This document shows, piece after piece, positions 1,506 to 29,663 of a stretch of DNA of 29,827 nucleotides (position 1 is the stretch's first letter; every line of letters begins with the position of its first letter). Origin of the DNA: Eledone cirrhosa (lineage: Eukaryota); contig CAXHJY010001749.1 in the NCBI GenBank assembly GCA_964016885.1, forward strand, positions 1 through 29,827, given 5' to 3'. Both the position numbers and the translations under genes were made by a program. The notes below the pieces were generated by a model, which was not told the DNA's origin, searched no databases, and saw only the letters and a list, made by a program, of their open reading frames with translations.

Positions 1506-4161
1506 TAATTAGCGACCTCATAGTCAGGACGAGACGTACTCGACAGCAGAAGAGGACTATCCTCAGGAGAAAAATATGGAAGCTAAAGGACCCCACAGCC
1601 AAAAATAAATTTCAAAACATATTACTTGATGTTTTCGACAGTAAGGAAGAACATTTAGAGTCGGACAATATAGAGGGACAGTGGGAATTTCTGAAAGCAA
1701 ACCTGCTGTTGGCGACAGACGAAGTCTGTGGCTGGAGCAGGCCTGTAGGCAGGAGGAGAGTAACATGGTGGTGGAACAGTAAGGTGGAGGGGTCAATTAA
1801 GGCCAAAAAGCAGGCTTGGAAAGTATGCGGGATGGGGGAAGTAGAGTAGACTATCAAGTGGCCAGGAGGGAAGCTAGGAGAGAAGTGTACTTAGCAAGAA
1901 GGGAAGCTGAGGAAAGAAAGTTCAAGCATGTCCTACAACGCGATGACCAAAAACGTGAGGTGTTCAGGATTGCTAGGCAATGCGTCAGGAAAAACCGTGA
2001 TATTGTCGGGGAGAAGTGTGTACTTAACGATGATGGCATACTTGCCATCACCGACACTGATAAGAAGGTAGCTGGAAGTGTCACTATGAAAGGCTACTAA
2101 ATGAGGAGAATAAATGGGAGAAAGACAGTCTCCCCATATCGACCCAATAGAGGGACCAGCAGTGTTAGTCGAGGGGAGTATAATAAGTAAGGCAATCAAG
2201 GATATGAAGACAGGTAAGGTGGCTGGGCCTTCGGAAATAGTTGCTGAGATGCTGAAGGCATCTGGCACGGTGGGACACACCATGGTCACTCGCATAGTTA
2301 ACCATGTCGTACAGAATGGGGTTGTCCGAAGGACTGGCATAGCAGCATCATCGTTAACTGTTATAAGGGTAAAGGAGACGCCCTAGATAGGAGTAACTAT
2401 AGAGCATTAAATTAATCGACCAGGTCATGAAGGTCACGGAAAAAGTAATAGCGCAACTAATCAGAGAGAGAATTGACCTAGATGAAATGCAGTTCGGGTT
2501 TGTGTCAGGCAAAAGTACACAGACGCTCTTTTCATAGTACGACAACTACAGGAGAAGTTCCTAGCTAAAGGTAAACCCCTCTACTTAGCTTTTGTCGACT
2601 TGGAGAAAGCCTTCGACAGAGTCCCCCGCTCCATTATCTGGTGGGCTCTTAGAAAACTAGGCGTTGACGAATGGCTTGTGAGGGCTATACAAGCCATGTA
2701 TAAAGAAACAGTCAGCAAGGTTAGAATTAACAACGAATATAGTGAAGAGTTTAGCGTAAAAGTTGGCGTCCATCAGGGCTCTGTTCTCAGCCCCCCTACT
2801 ATTTATTATTGCCCTTCAGGCTATAACAGAGGAGTTCAAGACAGGCTGCCCATGGGAACTCCTATACGCAGACGACCTGACACTCATAGCGGAATCAATG
2901 GCCGAGCTAGAGAAGAAATTCCAAACATGGAAGCACGGCCTAGAGTCAAAAGGACTTAAAATTAACCTGGCTAAGACCAAAGTTCTAGTTTGTAGGAAAG
3001 AAAACAAGGCGGCGGTCCCTTCTGGGAAATGGTCGTGCTCGGTGTATAGGAAAGGCGTAGGTAGAAACTCCATTTTATGTCCTAAATGCAAAGTATGGGT
3101 GCATAAAAGATGTAGTGGGATCACAGGTAAGCTAACTAAGAACATAGATTTTACATGTGGCCGGTGTTCTGGTGCAATAAGTAGCAGCAAAGTGCCCACA
3201 AAATACTAGCTCTTTCAATTGCGCAGAGGGTTCTATAGAAATAGTGGACAGCTTCCGTTACCTGGGCGATAAAATCAGCAGTGGGGGAGGGTGCTGAAAG
3301 TACTGTAGCTAGAGTCAGAACTGGTTGGAAAAAGTTCAGAGAGCTTATACCACTATTAGCTGCTAAAGGGTTCTCCCTAAAAATGAAAGGCAGGTTGTAC
3401 GATGCCTGCATACGAACAGCAATGTTGCATGGCAGTGAGACCTGGGTATTGTGTGCAGAGGATATACGCAGACTAGAGAGGAACGAAGCTTGCATGCTCC
3501 GCTGGATGTGTAACAGTAATATACGTGAACGGCAAAGCATAAACGAACTAAGGAAAAATTAGAGATAAGAGGGATCAGATGTTGTTTACTCGAGAGAAGG
3601 CTACGTTGGTATGGACACGTGATGCGCATGAAAGTCGATAGCTGTATAACAAAGTGCAGGGCAATAAAGATAGACGGTAGCCACGAATAGGCAGACCTAG
3701 AAAAACCTGGGACGAGCTGATAAACTCCGACCCTCACACACTTACACCTCTCCAAGACAATGTCACTGGACCGAGACCTTTGGCGGGTACTCAGTAACAG
3801 AGAAGACCCGCCTTGCCAGTAGGCATCTCTAACAAAATACACCCCGTCCCGCACCACCCCCACCCATCCACACCACCCCGTCCTATGTAAAGTTATGTTG
3901 GTGCCGCGCCATCCAGGCCGAAACAATGAGATCGTGTAGGTGTCACGACAAAAAAACACACAGTCCACGCTGTAATGTGGCCGTGTAGGCAACACGGTAA
4001 AAACCTCCCAGACCACACTGTAAATGTGGTTGGTGTTAGGAAGGGCATCCAACTGTAGAAAACCTGCCAGACAGTCCTATGCGAGCAAGACAATCACTCT
4101 GCCTCAAGTGGGACTACCCCCGTCCAAACCCATGCAAGCGTGGAACACGGGCGTTAAACGT

Positions 4162-7671: not shown

Positions 7672-10618
<2,947 letters not shown>

Positions 10619-10983
10619 GGAGGCACATGGAGGCACATGGAGGCACATGGCTTAGTGGTTAGAGCATTGGGCTTGCAATCGAAAGGTTGTGAGTTCAATT
10701 CTCAGACCGGGTGATGTGTTGTTTCCTTGAGCAAGACACTTTATTTCACATTGCTCCAGTTTACTCAGCTGTAGAAATGAGATGATAGGGGCTGGGGTCC
10801 CTATCATTCCACTGCAAGTGGTCGTGGAGGTGCCACGGCAAAAAAGCACCCAGCACTCACTGTAAATGAGGTTGGTGTTAGGAAGGGCATCCAGCTGTAG
10901 AAAATCAAGCCAGCATCAGTTCCCGTCCCACCCTTGCAAGCAGGGAAAAAGCGGACGTAAAATGAAATGATGATGATGATGAT
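10619..10983 (+). mobile_element. tRNA-derived SINE with RTE-like 3' tail
   Basis: A-box TGGCTTAGTGG at 10648-10658 and B-box GTTCAATTC at 10693-10701. Central CCTTGAGCAAGACAC motif. The 3' part is homologous to the RTE 3' UTR and ends in (GAT)n. A second copy lies at 29343-29663. Confidence 0.88.
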
Positions 10984-11569
10984 ATATATATATAGCGGCG
11001 ATGAATTAGTTTTGCGAGGTTTTTTATATGAAATCGTGTGTCGAAACAGATATTGTTATATTTGGGGAGGGTCATATTTGCGTAATATTGCCAGAATTAA
11101 TAACAGAACACACTCACTGTTTGGTTGGTTTTCGCTTCTCGCTGTCTTTATATATATATATCTGCGATCTAACTTACTCGGTCCTCAATGTTGCCATTGA
11201 CTGACCGGCGGTCAAAAATAATACAGATACAATATAGACAAACACATATATATATAGTTTACATAATTTACATAAATCTTTCGTTGCACATCTGCAACAT
11301 AGTGGTGTTATATTCATTGTTCCTCCTGTTGTGTTGTATGTCTACGCCATTTTTTTTTTGTTCAGTCTGTCTATATATTTATTTATTTATTTGCTTGTTT
11401 GTTTATCTTATTTTATTTTGTCTTCTTTGCGCATGCGTTTGTGTATAGTGTATGTGTGATGTGTGACTAGTGTGTATAGTGTTGTGTCTGCTGGGTGACT
11501 AGTGTGTGTTTATGTGCTTGTGTATGTATTTATTTATCTTATTTTATTTTATTTTATTTACTTATTTAT

Positions 11570-13051
11570 TTATACTTCTCTTAGGTCAGTGTTGTTTGTT
11601 TGGGTGTTGTTGTTGTTCCACTCATTCTTTCTGTTTAGCTTTGGTCTTCTAATTTCTATTTCACTGGCCTCTCTGATTTGCCTATCTGCTGGGTCATTCC
11701 TATGTTTAGATATTATTCTAATTTCTATGTTGTCTATGTTACCGTCATGTTGTTGTCTAGCATGTTCGTATAGTACTGACCCGTTTTTTCGTCCTTTTAG
11801 TTCCCCCCAGTGTTGGTCTATCCTTTCACCTATGCTACGAGCTGTCTCACCTATGTATGTTGTTGTCGTGTTTCTGCAAGTACCCTCTGTACATCTTATG
11901 CTATAGACTACGTTTCTAGTTTTACAGTTTATCCGGGGGTTCACCTTACATATGATACATTTCCTATTGGTACAGTGGGTTTTCTTAAAAGGGTAGGTTT
12001 TGCTGATCAGGGATTTTATGGTGGTTCCTGGCTTTTCTACCACCTTTATTTTTAAGTGGGTCTTTCTCAGGGCCTTTCTACACTGGTTAGCTAATTTCCC
12101 TCCAGGGGTGGCGTCCACAAACATGACACTCTGATATCTCTGGTTGTCGTACCATGATGTGGCCTTCCCTATCTTATGTCTAGCCCTATCTAAGCTATTC
12201 CATGATTTGCTCCTGTATAGTGGGCAAATTCCTTTCATGTCCAGTTCTATGAGGGTCTTATACTTTTCCATGGCTCCTTCGTATACTCTGACTCTGTCTC
12301 TTTGGTTGTAGCCAGAGAACTGCATGCGGTTGATGAAGTGTTGGATGTGTCCTTCCATTTCTGTTGGGTCGCACATGCTGGACACATTCTTCATCACTCG
12401 TACCAAATCTGCGATCAGAATATTAAACTTAGCACTACTGGACATTGCTGAGTTTTTGAGTATCAGGTATTTGGAGGCCATGGGTTTAGCATAGTGTGAG
12501 TGGAGAATTTGGGCTCTCTCGTCTATAGTGTTAATCCAGAGTTCTGTGTCTAATACAGGTAGTCTATTGTTAGGGTGTTTGGAAGGGAAGTCTATAGTTA
12601 CAGTTATACTCTGGTGTATGGAATTAGCTATCTGCTGGATGCTTTCCATCGTGCTACGTTCTAAATCAAACTTGTTAGTGCTCTCTAGTGGGGGTGTTCT
12701 TATAACTATATTGATATCGTCTACATAACGAGAGTACATGATGAGGTCTATGGAGCATTCATTAAGGAGATCTTTAAGTCTCCTTTCCCACCATACCATG
12801 AAAAGGTTGGCAACATCACCAGCTATGCTGACGCCGATGGCTGCTCCCTCATTTTGGGTGTAGATTTTCTCATTGAACTTAAATATGTGGCCCTTTAGGG
12901 TAGTTTTGATACTAGCCCCTATTGCATGTGCGACCATTTTTCTTACCTGATCAGTGTTTTGGGGGGTCCGTATAGCTTTGGTCCACCCAATCCACTTTCC
13001 TATGGGAGTCTTTTTAGCCATTGAGGTTATGGTGGGGGGTCTACCTCTCAT
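11570..13051 (-). CDS. PLE reverse transcriptase C-terminal half + GIY-YIG endonuclease (partial ORF)
   Basis: QNEGAAIG (RT motif B'), YSRYVDD (motif C), LPVLD, HYAKP, and a Cys-rich linker CTNRKCIIC. The endonuclease reads NVVYSIRC-x4-C...YIGET...R...H...EHARQQH...E...LN, i.e. GIY-YIG with CCHH residues. Confidence 0.9.
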   Translation of the reverse strand: MRGRPPTITSMAKKTPIGKWIGWTKAIRTPQNTDQVRKMVAHAIGASIKTTLKGHIFKFNEKIYTQNEGAAIGVSIAGDVANLFMVWWERRLKDLLNECSIDLIMYSRYVDDINIVIRTPPLESTNKFDLERSTMESIQQIANSIHQSITVTIDFPSKHPNNRLPVLDTELWINTIDERAQILHSHYAKPMASKYLILKNSAMSSSAKFNILIADLVRVMKNVSSMCDPTEMEGHIQHFINRMQFSGYNQRDRVRVYEGAMEKYKTLIELDMKGICPLYRSKSWNSLDRARHKIGKATSWYDNQRYQSVMFVDATPGGKLANQCRKALRKTHLKIKVVEKPGTTIKSLISKTYPFKKTHCTNRKCIICKVNPRINCKTRNVVYSIRCTEGTCRNTTTTYIGETARSIGERIDQHWGELKGRKNGSVLYEHARQQHDGNIDNIEIRIISKHRNDPADRQIREASEIEIRRPKLNRKNEWNNNNTQTNNTDLREV

Positions 13052-14770
13052 CACAGCAAACGAGAGAGATGACTTCATGAGCGTCATCCGACGCGAAACG
13101 AAATATGCTCAAAACGAATGCTGTAGGCATTTCAAGAAGAAATTAGAATGGATGAATAAGGAAAAACTACAAGAAAGGAAAATCGAATATTCTCAAAAAT
13201 ACCCAGATAACATCGACAACATCCGTATGAGTGATGTAAAACTACCGGAAGAATTTACCAATGACCACACAGTAAATATCTATGGGAACACTTTAATCAG
13301 TGAACAAGAACAACAAATCCTAAAGTTACCACCAAAATTTGCCATCTACAAAAAGATTAACCCTATGGAATGCAAAACGGAGCTGGAAAAGTGTTTCACA
13401 AAAATACGTTGGAATGCAAAGGTAAACAACAACAACAATAATAACGGTAGTAGTAATATAAACAATAACTCTGGGTATAGAAATAACAGCCATAACCATA
13501 ACAATGGCAGGAAAGTGAGAAATAGTGATAATGGTAATAATACTAGCGATAGACAGAACAACAACAACCACAATAATAATAATAATAGAAACGTTAACCA
13601 CAGACACAGCAACAGTGACCACAGTAGTAATGACGGTAACAATACGAACAACAACAACAACAATAACCACAGTGGTAATAATGGAAATAGTACATGTAGC
13701 AACATCAACAAAAACAAGAAACATAATAATAGTAACAACCACAATGGTAGAAATAGCAGTAACAACAACAACAATAACGGTGAAGTAAACAACAATACAT
13801 CTAGCAATCATAACAATAATAATATTAATGCTAATGATAGAAACAACAACAACCACCATGATAACAATAATAGCAACACACACAACTATGACGATAGAAA
13901 TAACGACAACCCCTTAGAGAAACTATTTTTCAACCCAGCTGACAAAACATATAAGATGGGTAATATCTATCCTACGAGGTTACCCTTTAATAAAAGAGTT
14001 TGCATACCACAGCAAATAGATGACGAGACGGAGGCACAGTTCACCATAGCTAGAAATAAGATTAGACAAGTAGTAGACAGGTACACTATGAGACAGAGCA
14101 GACCAGAGGCCCAACAACTTGGGATAAAACCTGTAGAAGGCTTGGTTAGCCTCAAGCAGCGCACAAGGGATGGTGAGGTAGTGTGTCTACCCACAGATAA
14201 GTCCGGTAGGATGTCAATAGATAGCATGCCGAACTACATCGAGGCAATGCAACCCCACATCACCAACACGAGCGAAGTTGCACAACTAACACACGATGGG
14301 AGAGAAAAAATCCTCAACGCTCACATGATGATGTGGACTGACATCCTAAAGCCAAGCAGACGCACTGCCAACAACTTCCAGGCGTCTAACAATGGCATAC
14401 CACCCTTGTATGGGCTCCGCAAAGACCACAAGACAGTCGACGACCCGACAACAGGACCACCAACAAGACCCGTATGCGGAGCTAATATAGCTAGCAACTA
14501 CAGGATCTCCTACTTCCTCTCAATGGTTATACGCCCCATAATCAAGATGTCCCCAGATGTATGTGAAAGTACAGAGGACCTCCTCAGCAGAATCAGTGAG
14601 TGCAACAAAAACAGGAGCCTATCCAACTGCATAATAGGCAGCATGGATGTGGTGTCACTGTACCCATCCATTAACATTGATTTTGCTGTGAAAAGATGTG
14701 TGGAGATGATCATTGAGAGTGAGGTGGAGTTCTGCGACGTCGACACAGACGAACTGGGCCTCCTACTTAT
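13048..14770 (+). CDS. PLE ORF N-terminal half (Asn-rich insert, RT motifs 1, 2 and A; partial ORF)
   Basis: ILKLPPKFA...KIRW, PTDKSGR, LYGLRKDHK, PPTRPVCG and SMDVVSLYPSI are typical PLE N-terminal/RT motifs. Similarity ends at DTDELGLL. The ORF-track ends (12954 and 14837) run into neighbouring sequence. Confidence 0.88.
13425..13910 (+). repeat. In-frame (AAC/AAT)-rich low-complexity tract encoding ~160 aa of Asn-rich sequence
   Basis: Directly visible, with no stop codons in the PLE frame. Confidence 0.9.
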
Positions 14771-14943
14771 GTATATGTTAAGAAGGATTTTACAAGGTGA
14801 AGATAGAAAGAGGGTAATGAGTAAACAAGTATTATAGAGTGTATAATGCCCTTTGAAGTAAGGTAGGAAGATGGGTATATTTTAAAGAAGTGTATGTATA
14901 TGTGCCTTTGAGAAAAGATTCTAAATTGATAAAGAATTGAATA

Positions 14944-15318
14944 TTAACTGTATACTTTGTGAAAAGTCCTATGGAATTTATGCAGGCAGATAGAAAACAA
15001 ATCTGTACGTCTATTTATTATAGAATCTAGATTAGAGATAATGGTAAATTTTTCATTTAGGCAGAGATTACAGATTTTAGATAGAGAGCTGTTCAAGTAT
15101 GAGGATGCAGGAGAAACCTTCTTCCAAAAGATGGTATATTTAATGTTTTTGTCTTTCAAGGACCATATGAGTTCTGAGAGAGCCGTGTTGGTTCTTTTAA
15201 GTTTGTATTTGAAAGATGAATGGTGATTATAGAGACGAGCTTTAAAAGAGGTGGAAGTGGAGCCAAAATAGGTGAAGGAATTGGTGCTAGTTATAACTTT
15301 ACATTCATAAATTAAGTT
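14944..15318 (-). pseudogene. GIY-YIG endonuclease domain fragment (inverted copy)
   Basis: NLIYECKV...TYFGST...FKARLYNH...LSELIWSLK...CNLCLNEK...INRRTDLFSICLH*. Confidence 0.8.
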
Positions 15319-15322
15319 TTTA

Positions 15323-15697
15323 AACTTAATTTATGAATGTAAAATTATAACTAGCACCAACTCCTTCACCTATTTTGGCTCCACTTCCACCTCTTTTAAA
15401 GCTCGTCTCTATAATCATCATTCATCTTTCAAATACAAACTTAAAAGAACTAACACTGCTCTCTCAGAACTCATATGGTCCTTAAAAGACAAAAACATTA
15501 AATATAACATCTTTTGGAAAAAGATTTCTTCTGCATCCTCGTACTTGAACAGTTCTCTATCTAAAATCTGTAATCTCTGCCTAAATGAAAAATTTACCAT
15601 TATCTCTAACCTAGAATCCATAATAAATAGACGCTCGGATTTGTTTTCCATCTGCCTGCATAAATTCCATAGAACTTTTCACAAAGTATACAGTTAA
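15323..15697 (+). pseudogene. GIY-YIG endonuclease domain fragment of a PLE (no start codon, absent from the ORF track)
   Basis: An open frame of 124 codons reads NLIYECKIITSTNSFTYFGSTSTSFKARLYNHHSSF...CNLCLNEK...CLHKFHRTFHKVYS*. Confidence 0.82.
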
Positions 15698-16138
15698 TAT
15701 TCAATTCTTTATCAATTTAGAATCTTTTCTCAAAGGCACATATACATACACCTCTTTAAAATATACCCATCTACCTTACTTTAAAGGGCATTATACACTC
15801 TATAGTACTCGTTTACTCATTTACCTCATCCTATCTTCTCGTAAAACAATAACATTTGTTTTTGACATTTTGAATATTCATCCGCAATCATTATTATTTT
15901 TTTTCCCTCTATCATAAATCTTTTTAATCTCAATTTCATCCTTAATTTATTATTATATATTTTTTTTAATATATACTCATATATTCTTTAAAATATACCC
16001 ATCTACCTTACTTTAAAGGGCATTATACACTCTATAATACCCGTTTACTCATCACCCTCATTATATCTCCTCGTAAAACAATAACATTTGTTTTTGACAT
16101 TTTGAGTATTCATCCGCAATCATTATTATTTTTTCTCT

Positions 16139-16324
16139 GGGTGGTGGATTGGCAGTATCGGTAGAGGGTCGGACGCCATGCTTTCCAGCATAGTTACGTC
16201 CCTTTATGATCTGAGTTCAAATCCCGCCGAGGTTGACTTTGCCTTTCATCCTTACGGGGTCGATAAAATAAAGTACCAGTAATGCACTGGGTAATTTGCT
16301 GGCCTTGTGCCTAAAGTAGAAACA
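16139..16324 (+). mobile_element. tRNA-derived SINE (second family) with 17-bp target-site duplication
   Basis: A-box-like TGGCAGTATCGG, B-box GAGTTCAAATCC and central GCCTTTCATCCTTACGGGGTCGATAAA. The TSD ATTATTATTTTTTCTCT is at 16122-16138 and 16325-16341. Confidence 0.88.
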
Positions 16325-17131
16325 ATTATTATTTTTTCTCTCTATCATAAATCTTTTTAATCTCAATTTCATCCTTAATTTATTATTATTTTTTTCTCCC
16401 CATCAACGAACTCATTATTAATACATATGAATTCAATATAAAAACTTTAACTTCACATTATTTTTCTCAAATCCTATACATAAACTTTTTCTCTTTGCTA
16501 ATTTTAAAATTCCTACATTTCTCCTTTTGAATATTCACCCACAATTATTATTTTTTTTTTTTTTTCTCTCTATCTCCATACATAATCTCCCTTCGTTATT
16601 TTTTTCTCTCTATCTCCATACATAATTTCCCTTCGTTAATTTTCAAATTCCTTTAATTTATACATTATCTTCCAACGGTTCCCAACCTCTCTATATTAAA
16701 ACATTATATCTTTTTCTCAGTTATAAAAACTATCTCTTTCTCTCTATCACCCATCTCTCCCTTTCCACCTTCACTCTCATCTCCTCCCCTTTTTTTTCAT
16801 CCTTTCCACCCCCACCCCTCCCTAAATATAATATATTTTTTCCTCGCACATATCCTCCCTTCGTTAATTTTCAAAATTTTTAATTTATACAGTATCTTCC
16901 AACGGTTTTCAACCCCTCTATATAAAATATATCTCCTCTCTGTTATAAAAACTATCTCTTTCTCTCTATCACCCATCTCTCCCTCTCATCTCCTTCCCTT
17001 TTCATCCTTTTCTCTCCCCCCCTCTCTAAATAAAATATTTTTCCCAATATCACACATCAATCTAAAACCACTTTTCATATGTTGATTTAAAACTGCACTA
17101 TCAACAAGTGTTTTTTTAGCCTTCATATCAT

Positions 17132-17217
17132 GTTCTCCTGTTTTATCTGATGAAAACACAAATATTATTGTTTGATGATGTTTGTTTTTGAAATGCGCAT
17201 AATAAAATATATTGAAC
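17132..17217 (+). ncRNA. Type I hammerhead ribozyme (family 1) at the PLE 3' end
   Basis: CTGATGA at 17147-17153, GAAA at 17190-17193, TGCGCA-TA, and stem I TTTTAT/ATAAAA. Confidence 0.85.
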
Positions 17218-17245
17218 TCCTTTAACCATCTTTTGATCTTATATT

Positions 17246-18322
<1,077 letters not shown>

Positions 18323-19750: not shown

Positions 19751-22700
19751 TTAGGTAAGGCGGGTCTTCTCTGTTACTGAGTACCGCCAAAAGTCTCGGT
19801 CCAGTGACATTGTCTTGGAGAGGTGTAAGTGTGTGATGTCGGAGTTTATCAGCTCGTCCCAGGTTTTTCTAGGTCTGCCTATTCCGTGACTACCGTCTAT
19901 CTTTATTGCCCTGCACTTTGTTATACAGCTATCGACTTTCATGCGCATCACGTGTCCATACCAACGTAGCCTTCTCTCGAGTAAACAACATCTGATCCCT
20001 CTTATCTCTAATTTTTTCCTTAGTTCGTTTATGCTTTGCCGTTCACGTATATTACTGTTACACATCCAGCGGAGCATGCAAGCTTCGTTCCTCTCTAGTC
20101 TGCGTATATCCTCTGCACACAATGCCCAGGTCTCACTGCCATGCAGCATTGCTGTTCGTATGCAGGCATCGTACAACCTGCCTTTCATTTTTAGTGAGAA
20201 CCCTTTAGCAGCTAATAGTGGTATAAGCTCTCTGAACTTTTTCCAACCAGTTCTGACTCTAGCTACAGTACTTTCAGAGCACCCTCCCCCACTGCTGATT
20301 TTATCGCCCAGGTAACGGAAGCTGTCCACTATTTCTATAGAACCCTCTGCGCAATTGAAAGAGCTAGTAGTTTGTGGGCACTTGCTGCTACTTATTGCAC
20401 CAGAGCACCGGCCACATGTAAAATCTATGTTCTTAGTTAGCTTACCTGTGATCCCACTACATCTTTTATGCACCCATACTTTGCATTTAGGACATAAAAT
20501 GGAGTTTCTACCTACGCCTTTCCTACACACCAAGCACGACCATTTCCCAGAAGGGACCGCCGCCTTGTTTTCTTTCCTACAAACTAGTACTTTGGTCTTA
20601 GCCAGGTTAATTTTAAGTCCTTTTGACTCTAGGCCGTGCTTCCATGTTTGGAATTTCTTCTCTAGCTATGATTCCGCTATGAGTGTCAGGTCGTCTGCGT
20701 AAAGGAGTTCCCATGGGCAGCCTGTCTTGAACTCCTCTGTTATAGCCTGAAGGGCAATAATAAATAGTAGTGGACTGAGAACAGAGCCCTGATGGACGCC
20801 AACTTTTACGCTAAACTCTTCACTATATTCGTTGTTAATTCTAACCTTGCTGACTGTTTCTTTATACATGGCTTGTATAGCCCTCACAAGCCATTCGTCA
20901 ACGCCTAGTTTTCTAAGAGCCCACCAGATAATGGAGCGGGGGACTCTGTCGAAGGCTTTCTCCAAGTCGACAAAAGCTAAGTAGAGGGGTTTACCTTTAG
21001 CTAGGTACTTCTCCTGTAGTTGTCGTACTATGAAAAGAGCGTCTGTGGTACTTTTGCCTGACACAAACCCGAACTGCATTTCATCTAGGTCAATTCTCTC
21101 TCTGATTAGTTGCGCTATTACTCTTTCCGTGACCTTCATGACCTGGTCGATTAATTTAATGCCTCTATAGTTACTCCTATCTAGGGCGTCTCCTTTACCC
21201 TTATAACAGTTAACGATGATGCTGCTATGCCAGTCCTTCGGAACAACCCCATTCTGTACGACTTGGTTAACTATGCGGGTGACCATGGTGTGTCCCACCG
21301 TGCCAGATGCCTTCAGCATCTCAGCAACTATTTCCGAAGGCCCAGCCGCCTTACCAGTCTTCATATCCTTGATTGCCTTACTTATTATACTCCCCTCGAC
21401 TAACACTGCTGGTCCCTCTATTGGGTCGATATGGGGGAGACTGCCTTTCTCCCAATTATTCTCCTCATTTAGAAGCCTTTCATAGTGACACTTCCAAGCT
21501 ACCTTCTTATCAGCGTCGGTGATGGCAAGTGTGCCATCGTCGTTTAGTACACACTTCTCCCCGACAATATCACGGTTTTCCTTGACGCATTGCCTAGCAA
21601 TCCTGAACACCTCACGTTTTTGGTCATCGCGTTGTAGAACATGCTTGAACTTTCTTTCCTCAGCTTCCCTTCTTGCTAAGTACACTTGTCTCCTAGCTTC
21701 CCTCCTGGCCACTTGATAGTCCTCTCTACTTCCCCCATCCCGCCATACTTTCCAAGCCTGCTTTTTGGCCTTAATTGACCCCTCCACCTTACTGTTCCAC
21801 CACCATGTTACTCTCCTCCTGCCTACAGGCCTGCTCCAGCCACAGACCTCGTCTGTCGCCAACAGCAGGTTTGCTTTCAGAAATTCCCACTCTCCCTCTA
21901 TATTGTCCGACTCTAAATGTTCTTCCTTACTGTCGAAAGCATCAAGTAATATGCTTTGAAATTTATTCCTGGCTGTGGGGTCCTTTAGCTTCCATATTTT
22001 CCTCCTGAGGATAGTCCTCTTCTGTTGTCGAGTACGTCTCGTCCTGACTATGAGGTCGCTAATTATCAGTCTATGTTGGGAGGTGCATTCTTCATGGGGG
22101 AGGGATTTAGTGTTAACAACAGACACTCTGTCACGTCTTCTGGTAAGGATATAATCTACCTGGCTTGTGTGTTCCCCGGATCTATAGGTGATCAGGTGAT
22201 TGTCACGTTTTTTGAAGTTAGTGTTACAGATAGTTAGGTTATTTGCATCACAGAATTCCAGGATTCTGGCGCCTTCCTCATTTCTAGTACCAAACCCATA
22301 GCCTCCATGGATTTCGTCGTAGCCGTCACAATGTTGTCCAACGTGACCATTTAGGTCGCCTGCGATAATTATATAGTCACTGTCGGATATTTGGGAGGTA
22401 GTTAGCATCAGTGTCTCATAGAATCTGTCTTTTATAGTGCCGGGCAGTCCGGATTGGGGTGCGTACGCAGATATTACTGTCACCGTAGTTCTATTGAGGA
22501 CAAGTCGTATTTTAATTATTCTGTCGTTCACTCTATTTACGTCTATTATCTTATCTGCCCACTTTTCTGCTACCATGATTCCTACTCCACCCAGCCCATC
22601 GTCGTTTCCCACCCAGAAAAGCTTATAACATTGTTTTTTACCCTCAATGAACCTAGCAGACCCACCCCTCCACCTGGTCTCTTGAATACAACAAACATCG

Positions 22701-23185
22701 ACCTCCTTACGTTCAAGCATTTCTACAACCTCGTTAGCGCGACCCTTTAGGGTGCCTACATTTATGGTACCAACTCTGAAGTTTTGGATTGCGTTTGGGG
22801 GTTGGGGGCGGTGAGGGGCGGGGGGCGATGGGGTTATGTTAGCCGTCCGCGGTCGAAACAATGAGGAGTGCTCGCATTCTCGTCCAAGGGGTGAATTTGT
22901 CTTTATCTTTGGCATTGTCGCTGAGCGTCCAGATTTTTCTCTCTCACCTCCACTCTCCAGGATTCCGCAGTCCATCCATCCATCATATATCGTATATCGA
23001 AAGGCAACCAGGCAAGCGATAGTATAGGCCTCTGGTTTCTGATTGGTCCGCGTAATAATACTGGTGATGCGTGGGGGCTCTGTTTTATGATTGGTCCACG
23101 TAATAGCAATGGTGGTGTGTGGGGGTGGGAGGGAGGGGTGTTGGGCAGCTAGCAAGAAGGTAATGATTGAGTGGGGTCCATGCAT
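19751..23185 (-). pseudogene. RTE APE endonuclease + reverse transcriptase ORF with one in-frame TAG
   Basis: APE motifs: GTINVGTL, CCIQETRW, AGDLNGHVG, SQVDYIL, SQHRL. RT motifs: NYRGIKL, QFGF, DLEKAFD, GVHQGSVLSP, YADD. ORFs 20666-23185 and 19751-20533 are in the same frame, separated by the stop at 20666-20668. The true start may be a downstream Met. Confidence 0.93.
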
Positions 23186-25011
23186 TTAACAAGCGATTAA
23201 CAAAAATACAAAATTTGTTCTGTTAAATACGTCCAAAAACCTACGTATTTAGCAATTAATAGAAACAGAAAATGTAGTTTGTTTTAGCGATAGATTGGCT
23301 ATTTGGACTTGATACGAATATGGATTGTTTTGAAAATACGCTAGGAGAGAGAGAGAGAGAGATGAAGTCTGTACATTACGTTTACATGAATATCGTGGGA
23401 CAGCAAGCAATGAAATGAAATTTGGCGAAGTGAATTCCTATCATATATTTATAGGGAGAGAGAGAGAGAGTGAGAGAGAGCGAGGGGAGGGGACCACATG
23501 ATGGCTGTGGGTGTTAGGCGTTTGACCGCCCCGCGCCTTCGAAGAAGGAAGAAGGAAAGGATTTTGCTTTTTTGTTTTGAAGATACGCTAGAATTAGGGA
23601 TTGGGGTTTGAAAATACGTTAGGAATTAAGGTTTGAAAATAGCTAGCAAGAAGGTAATGATTGAGTGGGGTCCATGCATTTAACAAGCGATTAACAAAAA
23701 TACAAAATTTGTTCTGTTAAATACGTCCAAAAACCTACGTATTTAGCAATTAATAGAAACAGAAAATGTAGTTTGTTTTAGCGATAGATTGGCTATTTGG
23801 ACTTGATACGAAATATGGATTGTTTTGAAAATACGCTAGGAGAGAGAGAGAGAGAGATGAAGTCTGTACATTACGTTTACATGAATATCGTGGGACAGCA
23901 AGCAATGAAATGAAATTTGGCGAAGTGAATTCCTATCATATATTTATAGGGAGAGAGAGAGAGAGTGAGAGAGAGCGAGGGGAGGGGGCCACATGATGGC
24001 TGTGGGTGTTAGGCGTTTGACCGCCCCGTGCCTTCGAAGAAGGAAGAAGGAAAGGATTTTGCTTTTTTGTTTTGAAGATACGCTAGAATTAGGGATTGGG
24101 GTTTGAAAATACGTTAGGAATTAAGGTTTGAAAATAGCTAGCAAGAAGGTAATGATTGAGTGGGGTCCATGCATTTAACAAGCGATTAACAAAAATACAA
24201 AATTTGTTCTGTTAAATACGTCCAAAAACCTACGTATTTAGCAATTAATAGAAACAGAAAATGTAGTTTGTTTTAGCGATAGATTGGCTATTTGGACTTG
24301 ATACGAAATATGGATTGTTTTGAAAATACGCTAGGAGAGAGAGAGAGAGAGATGAAGTCTGTACATTACGTTTACATGAATATCGTGGGACAGCAAGCAA
24401 TGAAATGAAATTTGGCGAAGTGAATTCCTATCATATATTTATAGGGAGAGAGAGAGAGAGTGAGAGAGAGCGAGGGGAGGGGGCCACATGATGGCTGTGG
24501 GTGTTAGGCGTTTGACCGCCCCGTGCCTTCGAAGAAGGAAGAAGGAAAGGATTTTGCTTTTTTGTTTTGAAGATACGCTAGAATTAGGGATTGGGGTTTG
24601 AAAATACGTTAGGAATTAAGGTTTGAAAATAGCTAGCAAGAAGGTAATGATTGAGTGGGGTCCATGCATTTAACAAGCGATTAACAAAAATACAAAATTT
24701 GTTCTGTTAAATACGTCCAAAAACCTACGTATTTAGCAATTAATAGAAACAGAAAATGTAGTTTGTTTTAGCGATAGATTGGCTATTTGGACTTGATACG
24801 AATATGGATTGTTTTGAAAATACGCTAGGAGAGAGAGAGAGAGAGAGATGAAGTCTGTACATTACGTTTACATGAATATCGTGGGACAGCAAGCAATGAA
24901 ATGAAATTTGGCGAAGTGAATTCCTATCATATATTTATAGGGAGAGAGAGAGAGAGTGAGAGAGAGCGAGGGGAGGGGGCCACATGATGGCTGTGGGTGT
25001 TAGGCGTTTGA
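23147..25011. repeat. Tandem array of ~495-bp units (about 3.8 copies, nearly identical)
   Basis: AGCTAGCAAGAAGG starts at 23147, 23641, 24136 and 24631. The last unit is truncated at 25011. Confidence 0.95.
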
Positions 25012-25028
25012 CATATACATATATATAC

Positions 25029-29085: not shown

Positions 29086-29187
29086 TTGTTACACTTTGGG
29101 AGGGTCATGCTGCCAATAAGAAACCACCCGCACCTGGTGCTTGTGTTTTCTTATTGGCAGCATGACCCTCCCAAAGTGTAACAATAT
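29083..29187. repeat. 105-bp palindrome with 41-bp perfect arms; half-copy at 28924-28978
   Basis: Arms 29083-29123 and 29147-29187 are exact reverse complements. Confidence 0.9.
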
Positions 29188-29276
29188 CGGTTTCAACACA
29201 CGATTTCAGATAAAGAATCTTGCTAAACAAATTCAGAAAACGAAATATATATATATACATATATATATATATACAC

Positions 29277-29342
<66 letters not shown>

Positions 29343-29346
<4 letters not shown>

Positions 29347-29663
29347 TCATCATCATCATCATTTCATTTTACGTCCGCTTTTTCCCTGCTTGCAAGGTTG
29401 GACTTGAACTGATTCTGGCTTGATTTCTAACACCAACCTCATTTACAGTGAGTGCTGGGTGCTTTTTTGCCGTGGCACCTCCACAGCAACTTTGCAGTGG
29501 AGTGATATGGACCCCCAGTCCTATCGTCTCATTTCTACAGCTGAGTAAACTGGAGCAATGTGAAATAAAGTGTCTTGCTCAATGGAAACAACACATCACC
29601 CAGTCTGAGAATTGAACTCACAACCTTTTGATTGCAAGGCCTAATGCTCTAACCACTAAGCCA
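29343..29663 (-). mobile_element. tRNA-derived SINE with RTE-like tail (same family as 10619-10983)
   Basis: Reverse-complement match to 10648-10983 with an internal deletion, and a (GAT)n tail. Confidence 0.88.

What the first reader, a model, noticed from the sequence alone, without database searches (positions are those of the whole stretch)
11570..14770. Naiad-like PLE split into two divergent, stop-free halves (twin-priming-like inversion)
Seen: the + ORF carries the N-terminus through RT motif A and stops at DELGLL. The - ORF starts at RGRPPTIT and carries motifs B' and C, the thumb and GIY-YIG. The 5' ends of the two halves meet at about 13048. They are complementary and non-redundant, and both are open, so the event looks recent. 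Established: L1 twin priming gives this inversion-with-small-deletion geometry, whereas PLE inversions usually duplicate terminal sequence. Inference: flipping 13048-14770 rebuilds most of an active element.
Basis: partly seen in the sequence, partly recalled or inferred. Interest (0 to 1): 0.7.

Follow-up and report, generated by a model that had tools for sequence, protein, structure and literature searches.

The report
Dead Penelope copy with inverted front
This is a very young, broken copy of a common Penelope-type jumping gene (not a Naiad) whose front half is flipped, likely because DNA repair removed one arm of the usual back-to-back insertion, and its reverse transcriptase carries a telomerase-sized insert that may mark an unnamed branch of these elements.

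Summary
Observation confirmed. One young Penelope-like (PLE) copy lies as a 3' arm (10992-13048, -) and an inverted 5' piece (13046-14769, +), both open, with 3-nt microhomology and a 68-bp frameshifting loss; 6 substitutions in 3.2 kb against an intact copy. It is not a Naiad: the GIY-YIG is C-terminal. The family has 1,764 exact marker matches in this genome. Of 94 inverted copies among 166 loci, 76-77 have two arms ending at fixed 3' sites in (TA)n; eight have an arm ending internally, leaving at most 202 bp of stem and mostly fused to non-(TA)n, cut neighbours. So does this copy: its outer junction cuts a Hydra-type PLE about 1 kb short. Best reading: repair removed one arm of a back-to-back insertion (0.45); L1-type twin priming 0.27; end remodelling 0.17; artefact 0.11. 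No read bridges the junction. Side finding: the RT has a ~70-residue insert between motifs A and B', shared by 131 measured proteins of the lineage, where canonical C-terminal-endonuclease PLEs have none; possibly an unnamed clade (no tree built). Earlier scan notes reported the two-arm geometry on other DNA, not this variant or the insert.

The parts
10992..13048 (-). PLE1 3' arm (unit bases 2071-4150): RT motifs B'-E, thumb, Zn linker, GIY-YIG, 3' UTR/pLTR with the long 'tail' end abutting (TA)5
11570..13048 (-). Coding part of the 3' arm, 491 codons without a stop, from RGRPPTIT
   Evidence: weak RVT_1 hit E 8e-4, below Pfam cut-off
11291..11311 (-). Hammerhead core region of the pLTR; this copy has a private 4-nt deletion in CTGACGA (0 of 206 other arms; 197 of 206 intact). 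Cleavage not tested
13046..13048 (.). Head-to-head inversion junction, 3-nt microhomology TCT; 68 bp of the element lost (23 codons, frameshift)
   Evidence: (intact contig 515-280-167 = 68)
13046..14769 (+). Inverted PLE1 5' piece (unit bases 279-2002; residues 129-702 of the 1,202-residue open frame): N-terminal region, Asn-rich insert, DKS, RT motifs up to A and the start of the A-B' insert
13420..13910 (+). In-frame Asn-rich insert, present in intact copies, absent from most homologs
14769..15321 (-). Internal fragment of a second young PLE, Hydra-type, subfamily a (99.8% to L044), cut about 1 kb before its normal (TA)n end; 1-nt overlap with PLE1
15322..17253 (+). 3' arm of Hydra-type subfamily b (100% over 817 bp to its own subfamily), head-to-head with the subfamily-a fragment, ending in (TA)n; interrupted at about 16139-16324 by a ~185-bp repeat

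Best explanation
This is a dead, very recent copy of an abundant Penelope-like retrotransposon whose 5' half is inverted, most likely because it was inserted as the family's usual two back-to-back arms and repair then removed the outer 2.1 kb of one arm together with about 1 kb of the neighbouring element. Shown: the family's normal inverted insertion has two arms, one ending at unit base ~4092 and one at 4135-4150, both in (TA)n, and the two arms usually share rare variants. Inferred: both target strands are nicked and prime reverse transcription on the same source RNA, and the cDNAs join by short microhomology. Here that would have given arms 4150->2071 and 279->4092, a 2-kb near-perfect inverted repeat around a 1.8-kb loop. 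Inferred: this repeat formed a hairpin, during integration or soon after; it was cut near the loop-stem border and rejoined by end joining to a resected point in the adjacent Hydra-type PLE. What remains is the first arm plus the former loop, which looks like an L1 twin-priming product. The copy is predicted to make no working protein.
For: Family norm: 94 of 166 loci have a head-to-head junction; of 87 not cut by the fetch edge, 77 were sorted as two fixed 3' ends (76 after moving L247 by hand), 75 of the 77 with one short and one long end; 148 of 154 such ends are TA-rich. Arms of one locus are closer to each other than the median arm of other loci in 29 of 31 loci and share at least one non-majority base in 28 of 31. 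The window's inner junction has 3-nt microhomology, in the range of ordinary head-to-head junctions. Its outer junction has 1 nt of overlap and cuts a Hydra-type PLE 955-1,051 bp before that element's (TA)n end: one deletion explains two missing 3' ends at one point. Eight other inverted copies have an internally ending arm; all keep 0-202 bp of stem although five could have had 1.1-3.6 kb and one more 0.6 kb (product of chances under uniform truncation 1e-5, threshold chosen after seeing the data). Only 2 of 8 have a TA-rich flank at the 0.6 cut (Fisher p 1e-6). In L140, L179, L239 and L247 the flank is a repeat cut in its interior. In L239 and L257 the inverted piece lies wholly inside the duplicated region, which twin priming does not make. 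PAc nicks and extends both strands from two internal start sites in vitro (PMC11167929). Spaced inverted repeats fold back in single-stranded DNA in yeast (PMC10164571 abstract).
Against: No precursor or empty allele was found: a marker of the left flank occurs only in this contig. The end point 68 bp from the other arm's start is what twin priming predicts, and L140 (-5 bp) fits it as well. The cut site in the Hydra-type element reads ATGTATATGT, which resembles the TA target, so a second nick with target deletion is possible. L204 is a clean internal start in (TA)n, so internal priming does occur in this family. Long stems persist in many copies (upper quartile 1.4 kb), so stem loss is not obligatory. 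L239 and L257 could also be fold-back self-priming. The eight cases were sorted partly by hand; the loci are not a random sample. Two loci (L110, L170) have arms no more alike than unrelated arms.
Confidence: 0.45

Rival explanations
1. L1-type twin priming: one target strand primed at the 3' tail, the other annealed inside the same RNA at unit base 2002, with deletion of about 1 kb of target between the two nicks.
For: Order and orientation match the model as described in PMC2912911; 68-bp gap and 3-nt inner microhomology; L140 has a 5-bp gap, and L179, L191, L247 overlap by only 57-108 bp; L204 shows internal priming in (TA)n; the outer flank starts with a TA-like 10-mer.
Against: Outer microhomology is 1 nt, whereas 5'-inverted L1 have the highest microhomology frequency at that junction (PMC2912911); the flank is not (TA)n and the neighbour is cut in this and four sister cases, while fixed-end arms sit in TA in 148 of 154; it does not explain L239 and L257; no target-site duplication could be seen.
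Confidence: 0.27
2. Remodelling of a single-arm integration end: a cDNA reaching unit base 279 was resected, its 3' flap self-annealed at TCT, was ligated and cut, inverting the flap, and was then joined to a resected reciprocal end.
For: [quoted passage not shown] It gives a small gap, a non-duplicated inversion and flank loss, as seen.
Against: It does not give the 57-108-bp overlaps of L179, L191, L247 without extra synthesis; the published example had 14-bp homology, here 3 nt; not shown for PLEs.
Confidence: 0.17
3. Assembly or library chimera on a short unplaced contig.
For: The window is a whole 29.8-kb unplaced, repeat-filled contig; four pieces of three PLE subfamilies abut; no listed read or contig bridges 13046 or 14769 in 8 runs.
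Against: The same geometry occurs on chromosome-scale contigs (L140, L179, L191, L247); the Hydra-type junction falls at a position where two chromosomal copies also fold (L066, L067); the runs are other individuals, lacking this copy's private bases; the halves carry the marker of a 10-place sub-lineage.
Confidence: 0.11

Closest known systems
Canonical C-terminal-endonuclease PLEs with inverted pLTR/partial copy (Penelope, A. vaga Pen2; PMC3846280, PMC8557442 Fig. 2)
   Same: Tandem units, start codon predicted in the upstream pLTR, inverted 5'-truncated second arm, tail at one end only, hammerhead core, Asn-rich in-frame insert (as in A. vaga Pen2a/3/4, at other positions), (TA)n targets.
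   Different: In this copy the inverted arm ends internally and duplicates nothing; the RT has a ~70-residue insert between motifs A and B'.
Nematis and Neptune clades
   Same: C-terminal GIY-YIG preceded by a CX2-5CxxC linker; spacing C-X4-CxxC-X7-C equals that of Nematis_C4 and Nematis_Cr in Fig. S2.
   Different: Motif A to B' distance 127-139 residues against about 60-63 (hand count from Fig. S1); DKS, LRKDHK and GG(A/P)IG in place of DKG, K(I/T)HK and G(L/T)AMG; no tree with named references was built.
Naiad/Chlamys
   Same: An insert between RT motifs A and B' (IFD position); (TA)n targeting; tandem and inverted insertions.
   Different: Endonuclease is C-terminal, no CxC motif, DKS not DKA, canonical hammerhead core present; insert about 70 residues against about 20 (Naiad) or 20-40 (Chlamys).
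5'-inverted L1 (twin priming; PMC2912911)
   Same: Inverted 5' piece ending just upstream of the 3' piece, small loss, short inner microhomology.
   Different: No poly(A), no visible target-site duplication, 1-nt outer overlap, about 1 kb of neighbour lost.
Telomerase RT (TERT)
   Same: Top fold matches of the predicted RT (VIA Z 15.2, rmsd 3.7 A, 357 aligned, human TERT), as expected for any PLE; insert at the IFD position and of similar length.
   Different: Structural equivalence of the insert itself to the TERT IFD was not tested.

Membership tests
Penelope-like element, EN+ | Single ORF with telomerase-like RT and GIY-YIG endonuclease | tested here: met
   1,202-residue open frame in L002; TERT top fold matches; VVY...YIGET and Cys/His pattern. 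Pfam gave no GIY-YIG hit for this protein.
Penelope-like element, EN+ | Tandem/partial tandem units, inverted copies, optional tail | tested here: met
   4,150-bp tandem unit; ends at 4092 and 4135-4150.
Penelope-like element, EN+ | Hammerhead motif in the pLTR | tested here: met
   CTGACGA-stem II-GAAA at unit base 3835 in 197 of 206 arms; motif only, activity untested; Rfam gave no hammerhead hit.
Naiad | N-terminal GIY-YIG | tested here: not met
   No N-terminal YIG motif in 29 of 29 proteins of 1,000+ residues; C-terminal YxG(E/Q/K)(T/S) in 28 of 29.
Naiad | CxC motif and DKA | tested here: not met
   CxC in 1 of 29; DKS in 51 of 61 rows, DKT 1, gap 9.
Naiad | IFD between RT3(A) and RT4(B) | tested here: met
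   Insert present but about three times longer.
Nematis | C-terminal EN with short CX2-5CxxC linker | tested here: met
   Spacings (4,7) in 23 and (4,9) in 19 of 61; 15 not matched by the pattern; compare.
Nematis / Neptune | No IFD (canonical A-B' spacing) | tested here: not met
   127-139 residues in 59 of 61 and 127-136 in 72 of 89 further homologs, 17 not measurable; in-genome control, Hydra-type PLE2: 61.
Nematis / Neptune | Placement in the RT phylogeny | not testable with these tools
   No named reference sequences could be brought into the tree tools.
Hydra (for PLE1) | DKT, divergent RT4(B), no CCHH, short ORF | tested here: not met
   The neighbouring PLE2 does resemble Hydra by eye (FDITMGASD, GIYRDDGL, CNCR...CPL).
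L1-type twin-priming product | Non-duplicated inverted 5' piece ending next to the 3' piece | tested here: met
   68-bp gap.
L1-type twin-priming product | Both outer junctions in one target site, with TSD and primer microhomology | tested here: not met
   Left end in (TA)5; right end inside a cut Hydra-type element with 1-nt overlap. A twin-primed insertion with target deletion is not excluded.

The most novel reading that the evidence does not exclude
This family belongs to an unnamed, widespread animal clade of Penelope-like elements that joins a C-terminal GIY-YIG endonuclease to an RT with a telomerase-sized (~70-residue) insertion-in-fingers domain, breaking the published rule that among endonuclease-bearing PLEs only N-terminal-EN elements have an IFD; in addition, its rare non-duplicated inversions record how long back-to-back insertions are trimmed.
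Probability: 0.45. Interest if true: 0.65.

Novelty: new variant of a known kind. Interest (0 to 1): 0.42.

Why it matters
For the locus itself: little; it is one dead copy among about 1,800. For mechanism: it shows that an L1-like inversion geometry in a PLE need not mean L1-like twin priming, and the family gives many near-identical insertions in which the two-arm rule (one short end, one long end, shared variants) and its exceptions can be counted, which bears on the open question of how PLEs form inverted structures (named as open in PMC8557442). For evolution: if the ~70-residue insert is homologous to the telomerase IFD, an active C-terminal-endonuclease lineage keeps a telomerase-like feature thought confined to Naiad/Chlamys and a few Coprina, and it offers a young intact protein for biochemistry.

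Tried and rejected
Reads: 8 runs laid on the junctions; no listed piece bridges them and all loose ends show the intact element; uninformative because the runs lack the copy's private bases. Empty site or second haplotype: not found. Recurrent break at unit base 2002: 16 places end the marker differently; of 10 read, 8 are diverged uninterrupted copies and 2 gave no hit at the 88% cut; 5 not read. Recurrent cut in the Hydra-type 3' UTR: 36 places; 14 read, all uninterrupted. Secondary insertions hiding the rest of truncated arms: no continuation within about 10 kb in 13 extension loci. Simple post-insertion inversion of a full-length copy: rejected, unit bases 1-278 are not left on the outer side. 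Fold-back of one cDNA as origin of ordinary two-arm copies: rejected, the short arm can carry the longer tail (e.g. L030). Two families in the halves: rejected. Pfam, PDB sequence search and Rfam gave nothing diagnostic. A DNA search with the 3' half skipped the near-identical copies. ESM Atlas gave no result. Ostertag and Kazazian 2001 was not held. No clade tree: named references were unavailable.

Full report
Setting. The window is a whole unplaced contig (C1776, 29,827 bp) of a 3.0-Gb genome, filled with (TA)n tracts and retroelement pieces. The nearest named protein to the element is from Octopus vulgaris, 69% identical, so the host is inferred to be an octopus-type animal.

Observation. 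The two open frames are there. Alignment to intact copies elsewhere in the genome shows one element in two pieces: unit bases 2071-4150 on the minus strand at 10992-13048 and unit bases 279-2002 on the plus strand at 13046-14769 (unit = a natural 4,150-bp tandem repeat from L025). The inner junction has an exact 3-nt overlap and 68 bp are lost, 23 codons with a frameshift (the same 68 follows from an intact contig). The copy differs from intact L023 by 3 of 1,724 and 3 of 1,470 bases, so it is very young. The first 278 bases of the unit and the upstream pLTR, which holds the probable start codon, are missing, and the hammerhead core has a private 4-nt deletion. The copy is dead. The intact 22-mer across the outer break occurs 1,764 times in the genome.

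What family. [quoted passage not shown] Naiads are defined by an N-terminal endonuclease, a CxC motif, DKA and lack of canonical hammerheads (PMC8557442; passages). These tests fail, so it is not a Naiad. The linker spacing equals that of Nematis in the paper's Fig. S2. But the distance from the motif A aspartate to the motif B' glycine is 127-139 residues in 59 of 61 aligned proteins and 127-136 in 72 of 89 further homologs, 17 not measurable. By hand count from Fig. S1 it is about 61 in Penelope, 60 in a Neptune, 63 in a Nematis, 84 in Naiad-Amil and about 118 in human TERT (the last assumes the same block start, which I did not see); the Hydra-type neighbour gives 61 by script. The insert has conserved positions (E280, G282, R306, W330) and is predicted folded at pLDDT 89-98. 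Top fold matches are telomerases, which is expected for any PLE and does not show that the insert is an IFD. Named homologs come from an octopus and a sea cucumber. The paper states that canonical PLEs lack the IFD, bar some Coprina. Searches for a described C-terminal-EN clade with an IFD returned only that paper or unrelated ones, and a 2026 preprint still lists eight clades (10.64898/2026.07.22.740005, passages). Subscription journals and Repbase were not searched, and no tree was built, so 'unnamed clade' is a lead.

The family's normal insertion. I mapped 166 loci: 58 best-match loci (5 dropped as pieces of arrays already counted), 78 taken in position order on contig 1, and 35 picked by a variant marker. 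This is about a tenth of the long copies and is not random. 94 have a head-to-head junction; 7 were cut by the fetch edge; the script sorted 77 as having both arms end at the 3' terminus and 10 as internal. In 75 of the 77 one arm ends at about 4092 and the other at 4135-4150, and 148 of 154 ends are TA-rich. This is the published 'inverted copy with a tail at one end' (PMC8557442 Fig. 2 legend; PMC3846280 passages) and fits the two start sites and two-strand extension seen in vitro for PAc (PMC11167929, parts 1-2 of 4). The two arms of a locus are closer than the median foreign arm in 29 of 31 loci and share non-majority bases in 28 of 31; same-source RNA is the simple reading, later gene conversion is not excluded. 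Earlier scan notes reported two fixed ends and one-RNA origin on other DNA; I saw the first before running.

The exception class. From the 10 internal calls I removed L153 (complex palindrome), L235 (runs 64 nt into the next unit, TA flank) and L193 (tandem arm that keeps a 219-bp stem), and added L247, which the script had joined to an older fragment. That leaves eight. Their outer ends lie -5, +56, +87, +107, -528 and -1,685 bp from the other arm's start; in two (L239, L257) the inverted piece is a 63- or 202-bp remnant wholly inside the duplicated region. All keep at most 202 bp of stem (chance product 1e-5 under uniform truncation, threshold chosen afterwards). Two of eight have a TA-rich flank (L204 clearly, L191 borderline) against 148 of 154 (p 1e-6). 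In L140, L179, L239 and L247 the flank is a repeat cut in its interior; L257 is unclear; L158 and L191 were not resolved. No continuation of the truncated arms was found within about 10 kb (not checked for L239, L247, L257).

The window's outer junction. At 14769 the inverted piece joins, with 1 nt of overlap, an internal fragment of a second young PLE (99.8% to L044) that resembles Hydra by eye. In five other copies that element runs on for 955-1,051 bp to (TA)n. So two 3' ends are missing at one point, and one event must have removed both. The fragment is itself head-to-head with a different subfamily (95% in the arms; each arm 99.8-100% to its own subfamily), at a position where two chromosomal subfamily-b copies also fold.

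Mechanism. Shown: geometry, youth, family norm, flank loss. Inferred: the route. Stem loss from a two-arm precursor explains the small or absent stems, the overlaps, the remnants and the cut neighbours with one process (0.45). Twin priming (as described in PMC2912911, passages; the original paper was not held) explains the near-complementary end points and L204 but needs a 1-kb target deletion here and does not give L239 or L257 (0.27). Remodelling of a resected end, proposed for L1 (10.1101/2024.12.14.628481, passages and section 9), gives the same product without a second arm (0.17). A chimera cannot be excluded because no read from the source individual was at hand (0.11). Yeast data on fold-back of spaced inverted repeats are cited from the abstract only (PMC10164571); hammerheads in pLTRs from passages (PMC4209133). 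bioRxiv supplements were not seen and do not carry a claim here.

Verdict. A real but dead copy showing an uncommon (about 8 in 87 inverted copies, about half of them near-complementary) non-duplicating inversion; probably not L1-type twin priming and not a Naiad. I found no paper on twin priming in PLEs and no earlier scan note on this variant or on the insert. The more surprising lead is the lineage's telomerase-sized RT insert. Novelty: new variant of a known kind; interest 0.42.

Noticed in passing
window 14769-17253: Head-to-head Hydra-type PLE whose arms come from two different young subfamilies and meet with a 2-nt spacer at a position where pure subfamily-b copies (L066, L067) also fold; suggests two different RNAs in one insertion and a reverse-transcription stop hot spot.
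   Followed up: partly
L023-L262 (family-wide): Two-arm insertions almost always pair one short end (~4092) with one long end (4135-4150): 75 of 77.
   Followed up: yes
P0001 residues ~690-760 (window 14740-14769 and 12920-13048): About 70-residue insert between RT motifs A and B', conserved across 131 measured proteins of a C-terminal-endonuclease lineage; the inversion break lies inside it.
   Followed up: partly
L204 (C1:126635800-126636420): Very young copy whose inverted arm starts internally at unit base 2199 directly in (TA)n: best candidate for true internal priming.
   Followed up: partly
L025-L028 (C28:42.00-42.06 Mb): Tandem array of at least ten near-identical 4.15-kb units with a head-to-head junction; possible source locus.
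   Followed up: no
L158, L161, L179, L198, L199, L255, L260: Arms with internal jumps (collinear deletions), suggesting template skipping during reverse transcription or later deletions.
   Followed up: no
window 23147-25012: 495-bp tandem repeat, 3.8 copies, 99% alike, attached to the 5' end of an EN-RT LINE (20666-23185 and 19751-20665, minus strand); the same junction recurs at many loci.
   Followed up: no
window 10617-10990: Left flank is a tRNA-like SINE-type repeat (label recalled, not tested) with a unique triple 10-bp repeat at its start and a (TGA)n tail.
   Followed up: no
window 29105-29407: 3' tail of a related PLE family (frame [22 protein letters not shown]) ending in (TA)n.
   Followed up: no
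L208 (C1:119.99 Mb): 615-bp tandem array, 99.6-100% identical units, next to the L191 insertion.
   Followed up: no
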